This document shows, one piece after another, positions 313-7,744 of a stretch of 11,307 nucleotides of DNA (positions within the stretch are counted from its first letter, which is position 1; each line of letters starts with the position of its first letter). Under the pieces are notes generated by a model that saw only the letters and a list, made by a program, of their open reading frames with translations, was not told where the DNA came from and searched no databases. The position numbers and the translations under genes were made by a program. This DNA comes from a virus: the UHGV virus genome UHGV-0356378; one strand, written 5' to 3'.

Positions 313-387
313 GTCCTCTTAGTTAAATGGATATAACGAGCCCCTCCTAAGGGCTAATTGCAGGTTCGATTCCTGCAGGGGACACCA
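313..387 (+). tRNA. argW: tRNA-Arg, anticodon CCU (reads AGG)
   Basis: A 75-nt cloverleaf can be drawn: acceptor stem GTCCTCT pairing with AGGGGAC (one G-U), anticodon stem CCCCT/AGGGG around loop CCTAA with CCT in anticodon position, T-arm GCAGG-TTCGATT-CCTGC, discriminator A and encoded CCA. The known attachment site of KplE1-type prophages is argW. Confidence 0.9.
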
Positions 388-388
388 T
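373..388. repeat. attL core: 16-bp CTGCAGGGGACACCAT, the 3' end of argW, repeated exactly at 11167-11182
   Basis: Exact 16/16 identity between 373-388 and 11167-11182, with mismatches immediately on both sides of each copy. The integrase gene lies just inside the left copy and the excisionase gene just inside the right copy. Confidence 0.8.
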
Positions 389-512: not shown

Positions 513-548
513 GTGGATAAAATAATTTTACCCACCGGATTTTTACCC
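504..548. promoter_or_regulatory. Cluster of three GGGTAAAA motifs (504-511 forward; 526-533 and 541-548 as TTTTACCC, i.e. reverse orientation); candidate integrase arm-type or excisionase binding sites
   Basis: The same 8-mer occurs three times within 45 bp directly upstream of the integrase ATG and twice more in tandem at 11088-11109 beside attR. One given 8-mer is expected about 0.35 times in 22.6 kb of two-strand sequence. Confidence 0.4.
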
Positions 549-1706
549 ATGCTCACCGTTAAGCAGATTGAAGCAGCAAAGCCGAAAGAAAAACCATACC
601 GCCTTCTCGATGGTAATGGCCTGTACCTTTATGTTCCTGTATCCGGGAAAAAGGTATGGCAGCTTCGCTACAAGATTGACGGTAAGGAGAAAATCCTGAC
701 CGTCGGAAAATATCCGCTTATGACTTTGCAGGAAGCAAGGGATAAGGCATGGACTGCGAGGAAAGACATCTCGGTTGGCATCGATCCGGTAAAGGCGAAA
801 AAGGCTTCGTCTAACAACAATTCATTTAGTGCGATTTACAAGGAATGGTACGAGCACAAGAAGCAAGTCTGGTCAGTAGGCTATGCAAATGAACTTGCAA
901 AAATGTTTGATGACGACATTTTACCTATCATCGGCGGCCTTGAAATTCAGTATATTGAGCCGATGCAACTGCTGGAAGTAATCCGCAGATTTGAAGATCG
1001 CGGTGCAATGGAGCGAGCAAATAAAGCCCGCAGAAGATGCGGCGAGGTTTTCCGTTACGCTATTGTCACCGGCAGGGCTAAATATAACCCGGCACCTGAC
1101 CTTGCTGACGCCATGAAGGGATACCGCAAGAAGAACTTCCCGTTTCTTCCTGCAGACCAGATCCCGGCATTCAACAAAGCACTGGCAACATTTTCAGGAA
1201 GTATCGTATCGCTCATTGCAACCAAAGTTTTACGCTACACAGCCCTCAGAACAAAAGAACTTCGTTCCATGCTATGGAAGAACGTCGATTTTGAAAACAG
1301 GATTATCACCATCGACGCCAGTGTGATGAAGGGACGCAAAATTCATGTGGTCCCGATGTCAGACCAGGTGGTTGAACTTCTCACTACGCTAAGCTCAATC
1401 ACCAAACCAGTCTCAGAGTTTGTTTTTGCCGGGCGCAACGATAAGAAGAAGCCAATCTGCGAGAACGCGGTATTGCTTGTGATCAAACAAATCGGCTATG
1501 AGGGTCTGGAAAGCGGTCACGGATTCAGGCATGAATTCAGCACGATTATGAACGAGAACGAATGGCCTGCTGATGCTATTGAAATGCAACTGGCACATGC
1601 CAACGGCGGATCTGTGCGCGGTATTTACAACCATGCGCAGTATCTCGATAAGCGCAGAGAAATGATGCAGTGGTGGGCGGACTGGCTTGATGAAAAGCCT
1701 GAGTGA
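549..1706 (+). CDS. intS: P4-type tyrosine integrase with N-terminal arm-DNA-binding domain, 385 aa from the ATG at 549 (the ORF track's 513 start is a GTG 12 codons upstream)
   Basis: N-terminus LTVKQIEAAKPKEKPYRLLDGNGLYLYVPVSGKKVWQLRYKIDGKEK is the typical P4-integrase arm-binding domain. The C-terminal half has tyrosine-recombinase signatures (ALRTKELRS box I arginine, HGFRHEF box II, catalytic Tyr in RGIYNHAQY). It sits directly inside attL at argW. Length and sequence match what I recall of K-12 IntS. Confidence 0.9.
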   Translation: MLTVKQIEAAKPKEKPYRLLDGNGLYLYVPVSGKKVWQLRYKIDGKEKILTVGKYPLMTLQEARDKAWTARKDISVGIDPVKAKKASSNNNSFSAIYKEWYEHKKQVWSVGYANELAKMFDDDILPIIGGLEIQYIEPMQLLEVIRRFEDRGAMERANKARRRCGEVFRYAIVTGRAKYNPAPDLADAMKGYRKKNFPFLPADQIPAFNKALATFSGSIVSLIATKVLRYTALRTKELRSMLWKNVDFENRIITIDASVMKGRKIHVVPMSDQVVELLTTLSSITKPVSEFVFAGRNDKKKPICENAVLLVIKQIGYEGLESGHGFRHEFSTIMNENEWPADAIEMQLAHANGGSVRGIYNHAQYLDKRREMMQWWADWLDEKPE

Positions 1707-1819
1707 TCCACCTTAACAACTATCGAATAGCACAAAGCCTTGCAACCCAGTACAAAGCTTTGTGTGTCTAATTTCTTTCTCATGCAATTGGTCTATTATT
1801 AACCATGTAATTTGGCGCT

Positions 1820-1866
1820 TACATCATGATGTACACAAAGTCAAATGCTAAACAATTTTTTAGCAT
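1820..1866. promoter_or_regulatory. Two palindromic elements in the integrase/membrane-gene spacer: perfect 14-bp palindrome TACATCATGATGTA (1820-1833) and inverted repeat ATGCTAAA-caattt-TTTAGCAT (1845-1866)
   Basis: Both checked base by base as self-complementary. They lie 120-170 bp upstream of the start codon of the AT-rich membrane-protein gene, where an operator or switch site would be expected. Function not shown. Confidence 0.3.
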
Positions 1867-1987
1867 GTTATGATTGTTAAGATGTTCTGTTCATGAAGTT
1901 GTTAGTGGGAAGCTCTGCATTAAAGTGATAAAGTGTGATAAATTCAATCTGAATCTTGTTGTGAGATGAAGCAAGTATGGTAAAGCT

Positions 1988-3331
1988 ATGAGTGATATAG
2001 ACTTTTTTTATTTTATATTTTCAAATTGGTCAGAGTATTTACTGTACGCTACAGTAACAACTGTTTTATGTTACATGACGGTAAGGAAGCTGGCAGTAGG
2101 AGTGATAGATCCAATACACTTCTATTTTACCTTCACATTTGGAACTTCTTACGCAATAGTATTAATGCTATGGAATTACAACTACATTCCTGATCACTTG
2201 TTCTACATGATTATTCTAAACTGGATTGTATTGGCTTCGTTTATGCACTTGGCATATAGAACACCTAAATTTAGACTACTTGGAACAACTGACAAGGTAT
2301 TTAATACATGCAAAAAAAACTCATCAATAATATTCTATTTGTTGCTAATATTTTATATATCACTAACGGTAATATATATAAAAAGTATATCTTTTGATGC
2401 CTTTGTACAGTCTAGGTTTGAGGCAAACAGAGGTCTTGGTGCTATCGTAAGGATACTTGATGTTGTAAGACTGATGCTCACTGGATATCTTTCTGTCATG
2501 GCAGTAAAGTCCAGAGGGTTGAAAAGAGCATCAATAGCACTTATAGCTATAATTATATCTATAATTGCGTCTTTTGTTTCAGGCGCAAAACTTTCTCTCC
2601 TAGAGCATTTGCTAGTTGCTATAATTGCAATTTATATTTTTACAGGTCGTAAACCAAGGCTAACGATAAAAAGTGCGGTTGTTTTTTTAATTATATCCGT
2701 ATCTCTTGTTGCTTATGTGCTATTCCTAATATCATATAATTCAGCAGCAATAGGGTATACAAAATCAAACTACATGGACGCCCCTGTTGTTGTTGAAATG
2801 TTATTCATGCGGATATTTGCAAATGGAGACGCATACTACTTCTCACTCCCAAATGCAGTTATTGACATGTTGCAAGTAAAAAATGCATTTCTACAACTAT
2901 TCGGATATATAGCCGGGAATGGGATAATGCAAAACATGCTTGGATATGACTACTCAGCTAATGATGTTGGCAGAATGATTTGGAAGGTATGGTATCCTGG
3001 GGATGATGTAGCAAGGGGGCCAACAAGTCACTTTGATCTTGCTGGTTATGTTTACTTTGGCTTTGTCGGCGGTTTATTCATGACTGCATTTTTTGGCTGG
3101 ATACTTGGTCGTGTATGTAAAGCAAAAAACATTAGATTAAGAAGCGATATATTCTACTCTTCTTTCATAGCATCTTTCTATTGCAGGGCATTGGCAATAA
3201 TGCTGTCTCCCCCTATAGGCTTGGCATACATGTTTGATAGCATCGTGTTCTTAATTGCCTTGATGATTTTGTCATCTTTCATTTCTATCTTACTTGGACG
3301 CGGAGTTCGATATAAAGTAGAAGTTAGATGA
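1988..3331 (+). CDS. Polytopic integral membrane protein, 447 aa, roughly 10-11 predicted transmembrane helices with one large loop (about residues 265-335); probable surface-polysaccharide (O-antigen) polymerase or modifying enzyme of the Wzy/EpsG/ligase-like kind; function unresolved
   Basis: Long uninterrupted ORF that is visibly very AT-rich (roughly one-third G+C by eye, against about half in the flanking integrase and ejection genes) and rich in Phe/Tyr/Ile/Leu. It occupies the slot between integrase and tailspike where P22-like phages carry conversion genes (gtrABC, oac, neuO). No gtrA or gtrB is adjacent and no acyltransferase-3 signature is visible. Followed by a strong terminator. 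Confidence 0.75.
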   Translation: MSDIDFFYFIFSNWSEYLLYATVTTVLCYMTVRKLAVGVIDPIHFYFTFTFGTSYAIVLMLWNYNYIPDHLFYMIILNWIVLASFMHLAYRTPKFRLLGTTDKVFNTCKKNSSIIFYLLLIFYISLTVIYIKSISFDAFVQSRFEANRGLGAIVRILDVVRLMLTGYLSVMAVKSRGLKRASIALIAIIISIIASFVSGAKLSLLEHLLVAIIAIYIFTGRKPRLTIKSAVVFLIISVSLVAYVLFLISYNSAAIGYTKSNYMDAPVVVEMLFMRIFANGDAYYFSLPNAVIDMLQVKNAFLQLFGYIAGNGIMQNMLGYDYSANDVGRMIWKVWYPGDDVARGPTSHFDLAGYVYFGFVGGLFMTAFFGWILGRVCKAKNIRLRSDIFYSSFIASFYCRALAIMLSPPIGLAYMFDSIVFLIALMILSSFISILLGRGVRYKVEVR

Positions 3332-3336
3332 ATAAT

Positions 3337-3365
3337 GCCAGCCCCGAGATTATCTCGGGGCTGGC
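3337..3365. terminator. Bidirectional intrinsic terminator between the convergent membrane-protein and tailspike genes: 13-bp perfect stem GCCAGCCCCGAGA / TCTCGGGGCTGGC with loop TTA
   Basis: Perfect inverted repeat lying between the stop at 3329-3331 (plus strand) and the stop at 3369-3371 (minus strand), with A/T-rich flanks on both sides. Confidence 0.7.
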
Positions 3366-3368
3366 ATA

Positions 3369-5582
3369 TTAACTACCGTAGTATGCAATTGATCTAGATA
3401 GTAAATCCCAATCCTTTAAATCACTCGGCCCCTGCACAGCAACATTTCCTTTGCATAAATTAACATTGGCTATGATGATGTTTACTTCTTGTGATTTTGG
3501 AAGCGAAAAGGATAAATAAGCATTCGCATCGCTTGCGGACACAAGACCTTCAAAAGGTATTGCTAATGTGAATTTTTTCAACCCCCATGAACTACCAATA
3601 TCAAACTCACCGAATGAATATACTCTTTGAACGCCTAATGATGAAGAATAGCTCAATATCAAGTTCACGGAAATTTTAGTTTGAACAGATGGCAACCCAT
3701 TTACAGCCATGAAAGATAATGTGACTTCTTTCCCTTGACATTTAAAAACATTTTTATCAATAACAACTCGCAGTGTCTTATTATCGGTATTTGCTATTGG
3801 TATCACCACTCCTATAGTTGTACCATCATGATGAAACTGAGAATCTGAGCTAATTTCATTTCTGTAAATATTACAAACAGCAGCTCCATCAGATGTATAC
3901 TGCCAAAAATCAAATACGCGAGAATCCGATGATGTCGTATTAAATGTAAATGAGTTAGATATTCTAGATAACCTACCACTACCATTTATAACAAGATTAT
4001 CTATTGATATAGATGATGTCCAAGTCTCAACCATAGCGTTAAAATCATGAATCTGAACTCCCGGGAAATTAATTTTTTCATATGAGTTACCATAGCTAAT
4101 TTTATTGGTATTGGTTTTTACAAGCACCTGCGTGTTATCGTATGAAAAAAGATCAAGGCAACCAATATGAGTATTTCTCAGAACAACATTACTTCTTCCA
4201 GGTATCATAAACCTACAATTTGTAGTATATCCCTCAGGCCCAGAAGCCACATTATGAGCATTCCAGTAAAGGCCATTACCACCAATCAATCCACCATCAA
4301 AATAATCATCATCTCGAACAACAGTATCACTTGGTGTTCCACCGTATGTTATCAATGCTTCACACTCTGGGTAAATAGTTTCATGGTATCCATTTATTCT
4401 AGGGTTATTGGCAAAAGATCCTAGTTGATGGGTTATTCTCCATCCTTGAGCAACGCCATCAAAACGATAATCAGCCCCTCCTACGTCAATGCACACACCA
4501 CCTGAACGAGTTCCTTCAATATGAAGATAAACATCAGACCCTATATGCAGTCTACTGTTTCCATAGTCAACGGTTCCATCTTTCATTTTGCCATTGGCGC
4601 TTAGCCAGTTTATTGCCTTTGACTTTGCGTAGGAGTGGCGTATGTTGTCTACGGTAATATCCCAGCAATGACCCCAAAGCTTTATCTGATAGTAATCTTC
4701 AGAGCCATAATCAATAAAACGCAAACCGATAATTCTTGGATTGGTTATGTATTCGTTGAAAACGATCCCATCGGAAAAAAGATCTCCAGTAAAAGTAAAT
4801 AAACCGTTTCCTACAAATCCATAAGTTACATGTAGACGGTGGTCTATGCCGCCTTTATCTCCATTAAAAGTAATTCCGTCCGGACCGAATTTTATTTGGT
4901 TGGAGGTACCATTAAATTCAAGTTTAGTGTTTCCTGCACTGGTTAGGATTACAGGTCTTTTGAACCAAAGCGTAGATGAATGCTTGAACCAGCCAGATGG
5001 GAACTCCAGAGTCACTGGCTTGCCATTATGTTCAGTATTGGCAATGCCATTAACGGCAGAAACCACCTGAAGCAACTGATCATCGATCACCATTCCTGGA
5101 GTATAGTCAATATCAATGTAATCAGATACGTAAACAACATCACCATCTCTGCGCTTAATGCCGCCCAACGCCTTCCCTACTGTTGAGTCTCCATACCCGA
5201 CCATCCAAGCTCCAACAATACCAGAGAGATCAGTTCGCAATCTATCTGGATCATACTTCAGCACATTAGGAGAATAGAACTGCTTCGCACCATACGCATC
5301 ATAAACGGCCATTGAATGGCCTTGCACGGTAACGAACTTGGCAATCTGTCCGTTATATACCGGATATCCAGCAGCGTTAATGATGATTGGTTGCGAAACA
5401 GGAACGTGAGAACCGTCTTCATTCTCCACATAAACCTGAATCTGGTTTTCAGGATTTACCGGGTCAGTGTCAATTTTACCGATATAAATTTTACCATTGG
5501 CAACTGCTTTAAAAGAACGCGCCATAGTGAAGAGTTGCGATGGCATACTTACTACAACATTGGCATTTATCGAATCTGTCAT
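3369..5582 (-). CDS. P22-like tailspike, 737 aa: conserved N-terminal head-binding domain (about aa 1-113, nt 5244-5582) fused to a divergent receptor-binding/probable polysaccharide depolymerase domain
   Basis: The N-terminus [98 protein letters not shown]...VLKYDPD is near-collinear with the P22 gp9 head-binding domain as I recall it. Beyond about residue 115 I see no similarity to the P22 receptor domain. A GGAG ribosome-binding site precedes the ATG. The downstream two-thirds is more AT-rich than the 5' end. Confidence 0.9.
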
Positions 5583-5746: not shown

Positions 5747-7744
5747 CTATTCTGACAACGCATCAGACTTAGCCCCCTGCGTCAGAGCGTTAATTGCCTT
5801 TTGTGCCTGCTGCATTGCTTTCTCAAAGGCTGTTGATCCGCGTGGGGTGTTTGCCATTCGGAGCATTGCATTTCTGAATGTTTCGCTCTCATAGGCGCGA
5901 GTAAGAAGTCCGTAGCTTACTGCTGCGCCAGTTGTCGCCGGGTTCATTGCCGTCCCATACCCGATAATGAACGGGATGGTTTGCTGCCCTGTTGGTGTTG
6001 TTACTGCCGCTTTTGCTGCCTGCTGAGTGGACTGAAGGTAATTTTTCAATCCTTTCAGATAAGCAGCGTCCTGCCCCTTAAATGTGATGCCAGTCTGGTT
6101 TTGCAGGGTGTTAAGCTGTCGAAGGAACTGGTCAGGGGAACCACCTGATTTCTCCATCGCCTTTCCAATGATGCCATTGCGCATTTGCGCCCTGCCAATA
6201 CGACCAACTGAGTTATACAGCGTCTTAATTTCCGATTTGTTCTTGCTGAATAGCATGTTGTTGACAACTTCCGGCGTCAGGTCGCCTTTCATGAGAACAT
6301 TCTTCAGCCTGGTATTCTTTAGTTTCGCCGCTTCGTCAGCGTAGACGGCATTGGCCTGCTGATATTTACGGAGAGTATCGTTGCCAAGATTCTGACCAAT
6401 GGCACCATTGATATCGTCTGTCATTGCCTTGTAAACGCGCTGAATGGCAGCATCGGAACGGTTTGGTAACACTGGTCGTTCCCCCTTCACGTCCATTCTG
6501 AACTGGCTGCGCAGATCGCTTAATTGCTTCAAATCCAGATTTACCGGACCATCAGGGCCAGCATTGCGAACAAGCTCATCACGATAGGACTGAAGTTTTG
6601 AAATTGTCTCGTTATCAGCAACCTTACCAAGCTTCTGCAGGTTAGATATTTCTGTATCAATCTGCTGAATTGCTCTTGCAGGCTGAATGTTTATTCCCGC
6701 CATAGCATTCTGAACCTGCTCCAGTCGATTTCCTGCAGCGCGACGAATTCCTGATGTTTTCGCTTTAAGGCTGTCAATAACAACCGCTGGATCATACTCA
6801 CCGAATTTATCAGCAAATCTCTGCACCAACTGGCTTCTCGCTTCCTGTTGCGTTGCTCTCATTCCGCTTGTGCCAGCCAGGGGGATATTTTCTGCTGTCG
6901 TTTGCGCCATTTTTCCGACGCGGGAAGTGGGTTGTAACAGGTCTGTGGTGTGCAGAGGAACACCTTCACGCTCTGCAAATCTGATAGCCTGCTGCGCTTC
7001 TGGCGCAATAGCACCACGAACGCCACGATAAGCAGCACCTAATCCACGCCCGGCAGCGTTAATAGCACCGCCAGCAAGTACACCAACGCCTAAATCGGTG
7101 GCGAGTGCTTCCGCATCATCTTTCGCACTATTTGCAGCAAGTGATCCAACTGCGTTTTCTGCTAGAAGGCGAGTTGCCCCCTGAGCAATTCGACCAGCAA
7201 GTGTTGGTGCCTGTACCGCCGCTCTCTCAACGCCAGCAGGAGTGAGGTAAGGCAATGCTTCAGCAAATACCTTTCCCTCTGTCGTTTGTGGAGTCAGCGC
7301 ACCTTGCTGAAGGCCAAAGTCCTGCTCTAATCCCTGCGTTGTTACTCGTGGTGCTGGTTGATATGTACCATCGCCAATACCGAGTTTACCGCCAGCCCAA
7401 GCCGCCGCGCTTGTTACAGCATCGGCAACTGATGCAGGTATGTTTGCCACGTTCACGCCGGCCTGCACCAGTCCGCGACCAGTCTCTTTTACTGCTTCAC
7501 CAAGATCAGACATAAATCCACTTTGCTGTGGTTGTTGCTGTGCTACTGGTTGTTGTGTCTCCACTGGCTGCACAGATGGCAATGGATAGGCAGCATAGAA
7601 AGCTTGCTTAGCCTGCTCTGCATTTTCTCCGGCTTGCGGGGCAACGACTTCATTGAAGTATTGCTCCTGAGCCTGCGCTTTTTGTTCTGGTGCTAACGCC
7701 TGATACTGTGGAGAGGCGATAACATCTTTCCATGCTTTAGCCAT
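5747..7744 (-). CDS. Ejection (DNA-transfer) protein of the P22 gp16 type, 665 aa
   Basis: Third gene of a gp7-gp20-gp16 set immediately upstream of the tailspike, as in P22-like late operons. Its start overlaps the stop of the upstream gene (TAATG). Ala/Gln-rich low-complexity segments are typical of these proteins. Assignment by synteny and size; P22 gp16 is about 609 aa. Confidence 0.8.
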   Translation of the reverse strand: MAKAWKDVIASPQYQALAPEQKAQAQEQYFNEVVAPQAGENAEQAKQAFYAAYPLPSVQPVETQQPVAQQQPQQSGFMSDLGEAVKETGRGLVQAGVNVANIPASVADAVTSAAAWAGGKLGIGDGTYQPAPRVTTQGLEQDFGLQQGALTPQTTEGKVFAEALPYLTPAGVERAAVQAPTLAGRIAQGATRLLAENAVGSLAANSAKDDAEALATDLGVGVLAGGAINAAGRGLGAAYRGVRGAIAPEAQQAIRFAEREGVPLHTTDLLQPTSRVGKMAQTTAENIPLAGTSGMRATQQEARSQLVQRFADKFGEYDPAVVIDSLKAKTSGIRRAAGNRLEQVQNAMAGINIQPARAIQQIDTEISNLQKLGKVADNETISKLQSYRDELVRNAGPDGPVNLDLKQLSDLRSQFRMDVKGERPVLPNRSDAAIQRVYKAMTDDINGAIGQNLGNDTLRKYQQANAVYADEAAKLKNTRLKNVLMKGDLTPEVVNNMLFSKNKSEIKTLYNSVGRIGRAQMRNGIIGKAMEKSGGSPDQFLRQLNTLQNQTGITFKGQDAAYLKGLKNYLQSTQQAAKAAVTTPTGQQTIPFIIGYGTAMNPATTGAAVSYGLLTRAYESETFRNAMLRMANTPRGSTAFEKAMQQAQKAINALTQGAKSDALSE

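What the first reader, a model, noticed from the sequence alone, without database searches (positions are those of the whole stretch)
1707..3365. AT-rich orphan membrane-protein gene in the lysogenic-conversion slot of a defective prophage
Between the integrase and the tailspike, where P22-like phages carry receptor-modifying genes (gtrABC in P22, oac in Sf6, neuO in CUS-3), this element has one 447-aa polytopic membrane protein. Its G+C content is far below that of its neighbours, and it is set off by an AT-rich 281-bp upstream spacer and a strong terminator, the hallmarks of a moron with independent expression. It has no GtrA/GtrB partners and no acyltransferase-3 signature that I can see. 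Many helices plus one large loop and high aromatic content fit a Wzy/EpsG/O-antigen-ligase-like enzyme. Phage-borne O-antigen polymerases are known (epsilon15, Pseudomonas D3), but I do not recognise this protein. It appears intact although the prophage cannot make virions, suggesting it is kept for the host's benefit.
Basis: partly seen in the sequence, partly recalled or inferred. Interest (0 to 1): 0.75.

Follow-up and report, generated by a model that had tools for sequence, protein, structure and literature searches.

The report
Prophage O-antigen polymerase replacing host Wzy
The gene encodes a phage-borne O-antigen polymerase (Wzy) found only in E. coli strains with the O5 sugar-unit genes; most of those strains have a broken copy of their own polymerase, so the phage enzyme probably now builds, and probably re-links, their surface polysaccharide.

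Summary
A 447-aa, AT-rich (35% G+C) membrane-protein gene lies at 1988-3331, between intS and a P22-type tailspike, in a 10.8-kb prophage remnant at tRNA-Arg (argW). It is not an orphan. It passes NCBIfam TIGR04370 (oligosaccharide repeat-unit polymerase), RefSeq already names it 'O-antigen polymerase', its predicted fold matches FtsW/RodA/WaaL, and a 33%-identical Pseudomonas relative sits in a Wzx/Wzy O-antigen cluster.

The new result is its context. All 8 of 5,426 complete E. coli genomes that carry it have the O5 O-antigen cluster. In 6 of the 8 the resident O5 wzy is dead, through three independent lesions. Nine of 10 checked non-carriers are intact, and the tenth shares a carrier's lesion. 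A 49%-identical allele shows the same pattern in O114, which has the same O-unit backbone. The gene travels with the tailspike's receptor-binding domain between phage families and genera.

Best reading: an epsilon15-like conversion polymerase, without an inhibitor gene, that has taken over O-antigen polymerisation. It is a candidate genetic basis for O5ab versus O5ac. This is a new member of a known kind, of moderate interest.

The parts
313..388 (+). tRNA-Arg (CCU), the argW integration target. attL is the 21-nt repeat at 368-388.
   Evidence: ARAGORN. Direct repeat 368-388 / 11162-11182 at 90% identity.
513..1706 (+). Prophage integrase IntS (RefSeq start at 549). It is always retained together with the polymerase gene.
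   Evidence: Pfam Phage_integrase, Arm-DNA-bind_3 and Phage_int_M. RefSeq annotation. The intS-wzy pair is kept in all four decay states seen.
1707..1987 (+). AT-rich 281-bp spacer with no convincing ORF. The putative extended -10 promoter element is TGATAAAGT at 1926-1934. Two mini-uORFs abut the start codon.
   Evidence: 34.5% G+C. Identical in four carriers. The only block shared with the Enterobacter cassette is TTTAAAGTG(A/G)TAAA(G/A)T. The small ORFs are not hydrophobic. The consensus promoter scan found nothing significant, so the promoter is an inference.
1988..3331 (+). wzy(Ph): a 447-aa O-antigen repeat-unit polymerase with 11 TM helices. Periplasmic loops at 134-150 and 256-348 carry the family-invariant residues R143, E145, N147, E270, R275, N279, D281, R329 and H348.
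3337..3367 (.). Perfect 15-bp G+C-rich hairpin between the two convergent stop codons. Probably a bidirectional terminator or transcript-end stabiliser.
   Evidence: -31.6 kcal/mol, z = -7.25. The core GCCCCGAG/CTCGGGGC is conserved in the Enterobacter cassette, and ws5-3 has a compensatory outer pair. No T-tract.
3369..5582 (-). Tailspike, 737 aa. The N-terminal P22 head-binding domain is aa 1-117. The receptor-binding part (aa 118-737, window 3369-5231) is AT-rich and co-inherited with wzy.
   Evidence: Pfam Head_binding. The receptor-binding part is 66-70% identical to the tail proteins next to the wzy homologues in Enterobacter, Morganella and Xenorhabdus. The only coliphage relative is the St11Ph5 tailspike. 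G+C.
5747..9873 (-). P22 gp20-, gp16- and gp7-type ejection protein genes. They are context showing the phage type.
   Evidence: Pfam Inj_translocase and P22_gp7; phrog_770, phrog_917 and phrog_598.
11162..11182 (+). attR, the right end of the 10.8-kb prophage remnant.
   Evidence: Direct repeat of the tRNA 3' end. dsdC follows in the RefSeq record.

Best explanation
The ORF encodes a Wzy-type polymerase carried as the lysogenic-conversion gene of a P22-like phage of E. coli O5.

Proposed mechanism. The host O5 cluster builds the Und-PP-linked tetrasaccharide Qui3NAc-Ribf-Gal-GalNAc, and Wzx flips it to the periplasmic face. There the prophage enzyme joins the units, using the conserved charged residues of its two periplasmic loops. 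It probably makes an inter-unit linkage different from the one made by the resident Wzy. The phage's own tailspike, whose receptor-binding domain is inherited together with the polymerase gene, would then no longer recognise the lysogen.

Difference from the classical cases. No inhibitor of the resident polymerase is encoded next to the gene, unlike in epsilon15. Instead, in older lysogens the resident wzy has been inactivated by mutation. The prophage enzyme is then the only O-antigen polymerase, which explains why intS-wzy survives while the rest of the prophage decays.

Shown: family membership, fold, restriction to serogroups O5 and O114, decay of the resident gene, retention of the prophage gene, and co-transfer with the tailspike domain.
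Inferred: enzymatic activity on the O5 unit, a different linkage, exclusion of the phage, and the order of events.

The confidence of 0.7 applies to the core claim, that this is a functional Wzy acting on the host O unit and substituting for the resident enzyme. The sub-claim that it makes a different linkage, such as the O5ac linkage, is less certain (about 0.4-0.5).
For: Family and fold:
- TIGR04370 is matched above its cut-off over the full length. The same model matches the resident O5 and O114 Wzy proteins.
- The 33%-identical Pseudomonas homologue lies between wzx plus a GT2 gene and a WbpL-type initiating transferase, in a cluster with FdtA and DegT genes, and is the only polymerase candidate there.

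O5 association:
- All 8 carriers are among the 35 O5-cluster genomes of 5,426. The hypergeometric probability is 1e-18, though the genomes are not independent.
- Carriers fall into three O5-cluster haplotypes, each shared with non-carriers.
- Resident O5 wzy in carriers: delG468 in FDAARGOS_1248; delT560 in ZF34 (ZF31 inferred from its identical match length and score); L151* in S163-2, TUM9754 and DETEC-P61; intact in ws5-3 and B25FEP.
- Of 10 non-carriers checked directly, 9 are intact.
- In the carrier clusters examined, wzy is the only gene flagged as a pseudogene.

O114 replication:
- A 49%-identical allele occurs in 4 genomes, all among the 9 with the O114 cluster.
- The resident O114 wzy is frameshifted in the two carriers examined directly, at different sites. 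Two further carriers match the frameshifted sequence at 100% identity over its full length.
- One non-carrier was checked and is intact. The other four have the intact match length.
- O114 has the same backbone as O5 (PMC10609480).

Retention and order of events:
- ws5-3 has a complete prophage and an intact resident wzy. The other lineages have differently decayed prophages that keep an uninterrupted wzy. Differences among three of the four carriers are all synonymous, and the spacer is identical in all four.

Cassette:
- The tailspike's receptor-binding domain co-occurs with wzy in P22-like and T7-like prophages of four genera.
- epsilon15 has the same convergent layout of tailspike, hairpin and polymerase.
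Against: - No experiment and no LPS structure is available for any carrier.
- The S163-2 lineage's prophage Wzy has P337L at a family-invariant position and may be impaired.
- One non-carrier (19SZHZ886Rt) has the L151* resident allele and an empty argW site.
- The two O114 frameshifts lie in T7/T8 runs. One of them rests on a single assembly and could be a sequencing error.
- Host wzy frameshifts are also selected simply by O-antigen-specific phages (Kapi1 study, PMC8787464).
- The genomes are phylogenetically related, so the Fisher and hypergeometric values overstate the support.
- No inhibitor gene was found, so how a fresh lysogen with two active polymerases behaves is unexplained.
- Foldseek found no significant structural match.
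Confidence: 0.7

Rival explanations
1. Same-linkage spare polymerase. The prophage Wzy makes the same inter-unit bond as the resident enzyme, so there is no seroconversion. It is kept only because it complements hosts whose own wzy was knocked out.
For: The resident wzy is dead in 6 of 8 carriers, so complementation alone would explain retention. Both proteins match TIGR04370.
Against: The two proteins are only 20% identical. A phage gains nothing from duplicating a host function. The gene is inherited with a tailspike receptor-binding domain and sits in epsilon15's conversion-gene position. Known phage Wzy enzymes change the linkage (PMC9241936). Infection by O-antigen-specific phages needs polymerised O antigen, so lysogeny most likely came before the host gene was lost; ws5-3 has both genes intact.
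Confidence: 0.12
2. Coincidental decay. The resident wzy mutations are ordinary phage-resistance (semi-rough) mutations selected by O5- and O114-specific phages. The prophage gene is an inactive or irrelevant passenger.
For: One-base frameshifts in host wzy arise readily under phage selection (PMC8787464). One non-carrier also has a dead wzy. P337L occurs in one carrier lineage. The O114 lesions are in homopolymer runs.
Against: All dead resident alleles found lie in carriers, apart from one non-carrier that shares a carrier's L151* allele. In carrier clusters only wzy is hit, whereas the one non-carrier with a dead wzy also has a shortened GT2 gene. The prophage wzy and its spacer stay uninterrupted while IS elements and deletions remove the neighbouring genes.
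Confidence: 0.1
3. A different enzyme of the same fold class. The protein could be a ligase-like or side-chain-adding enzyme, or a polymerase for another glycan (capsule, ECA, colanic acid), rather than the O-unit polymerase.
Against: The Pfam scan returned no family for this protein at E <= 1, so it does not match the ligase family Wzy_C (PF04932), which epsilon15's enzyme does match. The TIGR04370 match covers the full model length. The gene is restricted to two O-antigen serogroups that share one backbone. The host gene that decays is specifically wzy. The Pseudomonas homologue fills the wzy slot of an O-antigen cluster.
Confidence: 0.05

Closest known systems
Salmonella phage epsilon15 conversion module (gp21 beta-polymerase with the gp22 inhibitor of alpha-polymerase)
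   Same: A temperate podovirus carries an O-antigen polymerase gene placed tail-to-tail with the tailspike gene, with a hairpin between them. The presumed logic is the same: re-link the host's own O units so that the phage's tailspike no longer recognises the lysogen.
   Different: The polymerases are not homologous. epsilon15 gp21 matches Pfam Wzy_C, and hhalign against this family gives a probability of 0.2%. epsilon15 has a 66-aa two-TM inhibitor gene directly upstream of its polymerase. Here that position is an ORF-less spacer, and the resident gene is instead found mutated.
Pseudomonas aeruginosa phage D3 (Iap, Wzy-beta, Oac) and the D3-like prophage wzy-beta of serogroup O2 strains
   Same: A phage-borne second Wzy changes the inter-unit linkage of an unchanged O unit and coexists with a chromosomal wzy. 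This rests on the literature cited in PMC7685785, and the details are from my own knowledge.
   Different: D3 uses a three-component system that includes an inhibitor peptide. tblastn of this protein against the phage collection gave no match to any deposited phage.
Acinetobacter baumannii prophage-encoded Wzy (WzyPh1 for K127; wzy1Ph and wzy2Ph for KL58)
   Same: A prophage wzy outside the polysaccharide locus re-links unchanged repeat units. It is tied to particular loci and is found in unrelated prophages, so it moves between phages (PMC9241936, PMC13228068).
   Different: That system concerns capsule rather than O antigen, and a different genus. The resident wzy is reported as intact but suppressed. 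Here the resident gene has been pseudogenised repeatedly, and the polymerase gene moves together with a tailspike receptor-binding domain.
Resident O5 and O114 Wzy of E. coli (TIGR04370 members in the galF-gnd cluster)
   Same: They match the same curated family model (49.9 and 46.3 bits), have a similar length (438 and 443 aa), and presumably use the same Und-PP-linked substrate.
   Different: They are only about 20% identical to the prophage protein and are chromosomal rather than phage-borne.

Membership tests
Wzy repeat-unit polymerase (NCBIfam TIGR04370 glyco_rpt_poly) | Profile score above the curated cut-off over most of the model | tested here: met
   45.8 bits against a cut-off of 40, E = 4e-12, model positions 9-394 of 396. 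The margin is small: homologues P0010 and P0002 score 33 bits and P0016 does not match.
Wzy repeat-unit polymerase (NCBIfam TIGR04370 glyco_rpt_poly) | Polytopic inner-membrane protein (about 10-14 TM helices) with a large periplasmic loop carrying conserved charged residues | tested here: met
   11 helices and a 93-residue loop at 256-348. K+R counts are 17 inside and 4 outside. All invariant loop residues lie on the predicted periplasmic side. The topology is predicted, not measured.
Wzy repeat-unit polymerase (NCBIfam TIGR04370 glyco_rpt_poly) | Works with a Wzx flippase and an initiating transferase in a Wzx/Wzy-dependent pathway | tested here: met
   Homologue P0016 lies inside such a cluster in Pseudomonas. 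Here the partners are supplied in trans by the host O5 cluster, which has wzx.
Wzy repeat-unit polymerase (NCBIfam TIGR04370 glyco_rpt_poly) | Polymerises Und-PP-linked repeat units; loss gives semi-rough LPS | not testable with these tools
   This needs an LPS gel of a deletion mutant or a complemented strain.
SEDS / WaaL / Wzy fold class of Und-PP-glycan enzymes | Shared helical membrane fold | tested here: met
O-antigen ligase / Wzy_C (Pfam PF04932) | Match to the Wzy_C domain | tested here: not met
   The Pfam scan returned no family for this protein at E <= 1. epsilon15 gp21 matches Wzy_C at 40 bits.
epsilon15 / D3-type polymerase-swap seroconversion | Phage-borne polymerase gene adjacent to the tailspike in a temperate phage | tested here: met
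   The convergent pair with a shared hairpin is seen here and in epsilon15. A complete prophage version exists in ws5-3.
epsilon15 / D3-type polymerase-swap seroconversion | Small membrane peptide that inhibits the resident polymerase | tested here: not met
   There is no hydrophobic small ORF in the 281-bp spacer or next to the gene. The 71-aa single-TM ORF at 10534-10749 is absent from reduced carriers. An unrecognised inhibitor elsewhere in the complete phage cannot be excluded.
epsilon15 / D3-type polymerase-swap seroconversion | A new inter-unit linkage and loss of adsorption by the converting phage | not testable with these tools
   This needs the polysaccharide structure and phage adsorption tests.
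GtrABC glucosylation and Oac (acyltransferase-3) conversion modules of P22-, Sf6- and SfV-type phages | GtrA/GtrB partners or an Acyl_transf_3 domain | tested here: not met
   No such Pfam or NCBIfam hit, and no such neighbouring genes.

The most novel reading that the evidence does not exclude
This prophage gene is the undiscovered genetic basis of the O5ab/O5ac split. On this reading the resident O5 Wzy makes GalNAc-alpha-(1->4)-Qui3NAc (O5ab, as in the O114 type structure), and the prophage Wzy makes GalNAc-alpha-(1->2)-Qui3NAc (O5ac). Its O114 allele would define an unrecognised O114 subtype in ETEC O114:H49. More generally, polymerase plus tailspike receptor-binding domain would form a mobile two-gene 'read and rewrite the receptor' cassette that moves between phage families. 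It would drive the host to discard its own polymerase, making the host dependent on a prophage remnant for its O antigen.
Probability: 0.4. Interest if true: 0.7.

Novelty: new member of a known kind. Interest (0 to 1): 0.55.

Why it matters
- O-serotyping from genome sequence reads only the galF-gnd cluster. A polymerase at argW that re-links the same units would make two antigenically and phage-wise different surfaces look identical in silico. It would also make strains with a 'broken wzy' look rough when they are not.
- It offers a testable genetic explanation for the O5ab/O5ac subtypes. These share one repeat unit joined through different linkages (PMC7496230), and the 2019 E. coli O-antigen review gives no genetic basis for them.
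- It predicts a hidden O114 variant in an ETEC lineage.
- It is a clear natural example of a host becoming dependent on a prophage remnant, which would explain why such remnants persist.
- It suggests that receptor-binding and receptor-rewriting functions are exchanged between phages as one unit, which matters for choosing phages and depolymerases for therapy.

Tried and rejected
- Pfam search of the protein: no family.
- Sequence search of solved structures: none.
- tblastn against 50,697 deposited phage genomes: no match at 1e-5. No sequenced free phage carries this family, and it is known only from prophages.
- Search for an Iap-like inhibitor. The spacer ORFs (29 and 31 aa) are not hydrophobic. 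The 71-aa TM ORF at 10534-10749 is a phage family of unknown function but is missing from reduced carriers.
- Homology to the epsilon15 polymerase: rejected (hhalign probability 0.2%).
- Kapi1, an argW P22-like phage that converts O antigen: its conversion gene is unidentified and it has no homologue of this protein.
- Consensus sigma-70 promoter scan of the spacer: no better than shuffled sequence. The extended -10 proposal rests only on conservation with Enterobacter.
- Attempts to confirm the O5ab 1->4 linkage from held papers failed. The primary papers and the review's supplement are not held. That linkage is from my own knowledge (MacLean and Perry 1997; Urbina et al. 2005).
Full report
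**1. The observation**

- The window is 100% identical, over the 2.1-kb segment (1500-3600) used as query, to the argW region of E. coli FDAARGOS_1248.
- tRNA-Arg(CCU) lies at 313-387. Its 3' end is repeated at 11162-11182. These repeats bound a 10.8-kb element.
- The element contains intS, the 447-aa ORF (1988-3331, +), a convergent P22-type tailspike (3369-5582, -), three ejection-protein genes, a DUF2824 fragment, an ASCH gene, small ORFs and torI/xis.
- There are no head, packaging, lysis or immunity genes, so the prophage is defective.
- The ORF is 35.4% G+C and its 281-bp spacer 34.5%, against 47.2% for intS and about 51% for the ejection genes. The receptor-binding part of the tailspike is also low (38.6%; GC3 0.30 against 0.32), so the low-GC block spans both genes.
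- A perfect 15-bp G+C-rich hairpin fills the gap between the two stop codons (-31.6 kcal/mol, z = -7.25). It has no T-tract, and the terminator scan did not flag it.

**2. What the protein is**

- Pfam gives no family. NCBIfam TIGR04370, 'oligosaccharide repeat unit polymerase', is matched over its whole length at 45.8 bits against a cut-off of 40. RefSeq already calls the protein 'O-antigen polymerase'.
- The same model matches the resident O5 and O114 Wzy proteins.
- A family alignment of 21 relatives shows 48 invariant positions. The AlphaFold model built on it is confident (pLDDT 81, pTM 0.84).
- The model has 11 transmembrane helices. The positive-inside rule fits throughout (K+R 17 inside, 4 outside). 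Every invariant loop residue falls on the predicted periplasmic side, in loops 134-150 and 256-348.
- A 33%-identical Pseudomonas relative occupies the polymerase slot of a Wzx/Wzy O-antigen cluster that also has FdtA- and DegT-type genes for a 3-amino-3,6-dideoxyhexose.
- A profile search of 1.84 billion representatives finds 338 relatives, nearly all matching over their full length.
- No deposited phage genome encodes one.

**3. Restriction to serogroup O5**

- The gene occurs in 8 of 5,426 complete E. coli genomes, always at argW.
- The host of the window has the O5 O-antigen cluster. The O5 wzx-wzy DNA occurs in 35 genomes, and all 8 carriers are among them. The hypergeometric probability is 1e-18, although the genomes are not independent.
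- Carriers fall into three O5-cluster haplotypes, each shared with non-carriers. They come from humans, pigs, chicken, a pangolin and water on three continents.

**4. Decay of the resident polymerase**

- The window's host has its cluster wzy annotated as frameshifted. Direct comparison of carriers shows:
  - delG468 in FDAARGOS_1248;
  - delT560 in ZF34, with ZF31 showing the same match length and score;
  - L151* in S163-2, TUM9754 and DETEC-P61;
  - intact genes in ws5-3 and B25FEP.
- That makes three independent lesions in 6 of 8 carriers. None lies in a long homopolymer, and wzy is the only gene of those clusters flagged as a pseudogene.
- Of 10 non-carriers inspected, 9 are intact. The other 17 have the intact match length and the same match scores as inspected intact genomes.
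- The exception, 19SZHZ886Rt, shares the L151* allele with a carrier lineage. It has an empty argW site and also a shortened GT2 gene.

**5. Replication in O114**

- A 49%-identical allele sits in the same slot of a full P22-like prophage in four genomes. All four are among the nine genomes with the O114 cluster.
- These indels are in T7/T8 runs. Error cannot be excluded for the single-genome case, and slipped-strand switching is possible.
- The O114 repeat is ->3)-a-GlcNAc-(1->4)-b-Qui3N(AcSer)-(1->3)-b-Ribf-(1->4)-b-Gal-(1-> (PMC10609480). This is the same backbone as O5. O5ac contains a-GalNAc-(1->2)-b-Qui3NAc-(1->3)-b-Ribf (PMC9912281).

**6. Retention and order of events**

- ws5-3 carries an apparently complete P22-like prophage and an intact resident wzy.
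- The other lineages have decayed differently: intS-wzy-IS1 in ZF34, intS-wzy-tailspike stub-IS1A in S163-2, and the 10.8-kb remnant here.
- The polymerase gene is uninterrupted in all four, and its spacer is identical. Three of the four distinct nucleotide differences are synonymous.
- The fourth is P337L, at an invariant position, in the S163-2 lineage. This is a caveat.
- O-antigen-specific podoviruses need polymerised O antigen to infect (PMC8787464). Lysogeny therefore most likely came before the loss of the host gene.

**7. A mobile cassette**

- In every context examined, the close homologues lie tail-to-tail with a tail protein: E. coli O114, Morganella and Xenorhabdus P22-like elements, and a T7-like prophage of Enterobacter.
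- The window tailspike is 69-70% identical over its whole length to the Morganella and Xenorhabdus proteins. Residues 118-736 are 66% identical to the C-terminal part of the Enterobacter tail protein, which has a different N-terminal adaptor.
- The O114 allele is paired with an unrelated receptor-binding domain.
- The hairpin core is shared with Enterobacter, and ws5-3 has a compensatory outer pair. The only conserved upstream block reads as an extended -10 element.
- The only coliphage relatives of the receptor-binding domain are the tailspike of St11Ph5 and that of an identical isolate (23% identity, E = 1e-6). St11Ph5 was isolated on an O5ab strain (PMC5764931).

**8. Comparison with known systems**

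- epsilon15 has the same layout: tailspike, hairpin, and a convergent polymerase gene. It also has a 66-aa two-TM inhibitor gene directly upstream of the polymerase.
- Its polymerase is a Wzy_C protein with no profile similarity to this family.
- Here no inhibitor gene is found.
- Acinetobacter prophage Wzy enzymes re-link unchanged capsule units and move between prophages.
- In the held literature I found no description of this for E. coli. The 2019 review mentions a second wzy plus an inhibitor only as a possibility for O118/O151, and it does not explain O5ab/O5ac.

**9. Verdict**

- What is new is the evidence that it acts on the host O5 unit, that it has taken over from the resident polymerase in most carriers, and that it moves with its tailspike domain.
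- Whether it makes the O5ac linkage is a well-posed, untested hypothesis. The assignment of resident = 1->4 rests partly on my own recollection of the O5ab structure.

Noticed in passing
window 10534-10749 (+): A 71-aa ORF with one N-terminal transmembrane helix. It matches phrog_15342 (unknown function) over its full length at E = 7e-52, but the RefSeq record does not annotate it. It is absent from the more reduced carriers.
   Followed up: partly
window 358-373 and 10858-10873: An exact 16-nt copy of part of the tRNA-Arg 3' region lies about 300 bp inside attR, just upstream of torI. It may be a relic of a second or tandem integration.
   Followed up: no
window 1966-1990: Two mini-uORFs lie directly before the polymerase start: ATG1966 (MKQVW-stop) and ATG1976 (MVKL-stop), whose TGA overlaps the wzy ATG. 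The gene also has 15.9% rare codons, against 4.9% in intS. This suggests deliberately low, coupled translation.
   Followed up: no
window 1925-1942: Tandem GTGATAAA motifs. The first copy is conserved upstream of the Enterobacter homologue and reads as an extended -10 element.
   Followed up: partly
L031 18942-22764 (E. coli S163-2): A second intS-type prophage is integrated in tandem and carries a 631-aa acyltransferase-family gene next to its integrase. This is a second candidate O-antigen modifier at the same site.
   Followed up: no
L031 14489-15832 (S163-2; same protein expected in TUM9754 and DETEC-P61): The prophage polymerase has P337L at a position invariant in all 21 family members. 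It may be impaired in the lineage whose resident wzy carries L151*.
   Followed up: partly
L034 8245-9577 and L035 2160-3490 (resident O114 wzy): Both inactivating indels lie in T7/T8 runs. Either assembly error or slipped-strand on/off switching of the resident polymerase is possible.
   Followed up: partly
L038 9003-9728 (E. coli 19SZHZ886Rt): This non-carrier has the L151* resident wzy and an empty argW site. Its GT2 gene after wzy is also shortened (726 nt instead of 879 nt), so the O-antigen pathway there may have been abandoned.
   Followed up: partly
window 9876-9983: A 36-codon fragment of the DUF2824 (P22 gp14-like) gene abuts the ASCH-domain gene. This marks the deletion junction that removed the whole morphogenesis, lysis and immunity region.
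   Followed up: no
L009/L010 (Pseudomonas sp. MPDS O-antigen cluster): The chromosomal homologue lies in a cluster with FdtA-type isomerase and DegT aminotransferase genes. The family may therefore be specialised for units containing a 3-acylamino-3,6-dideoxyhexose.
   Followed up: no
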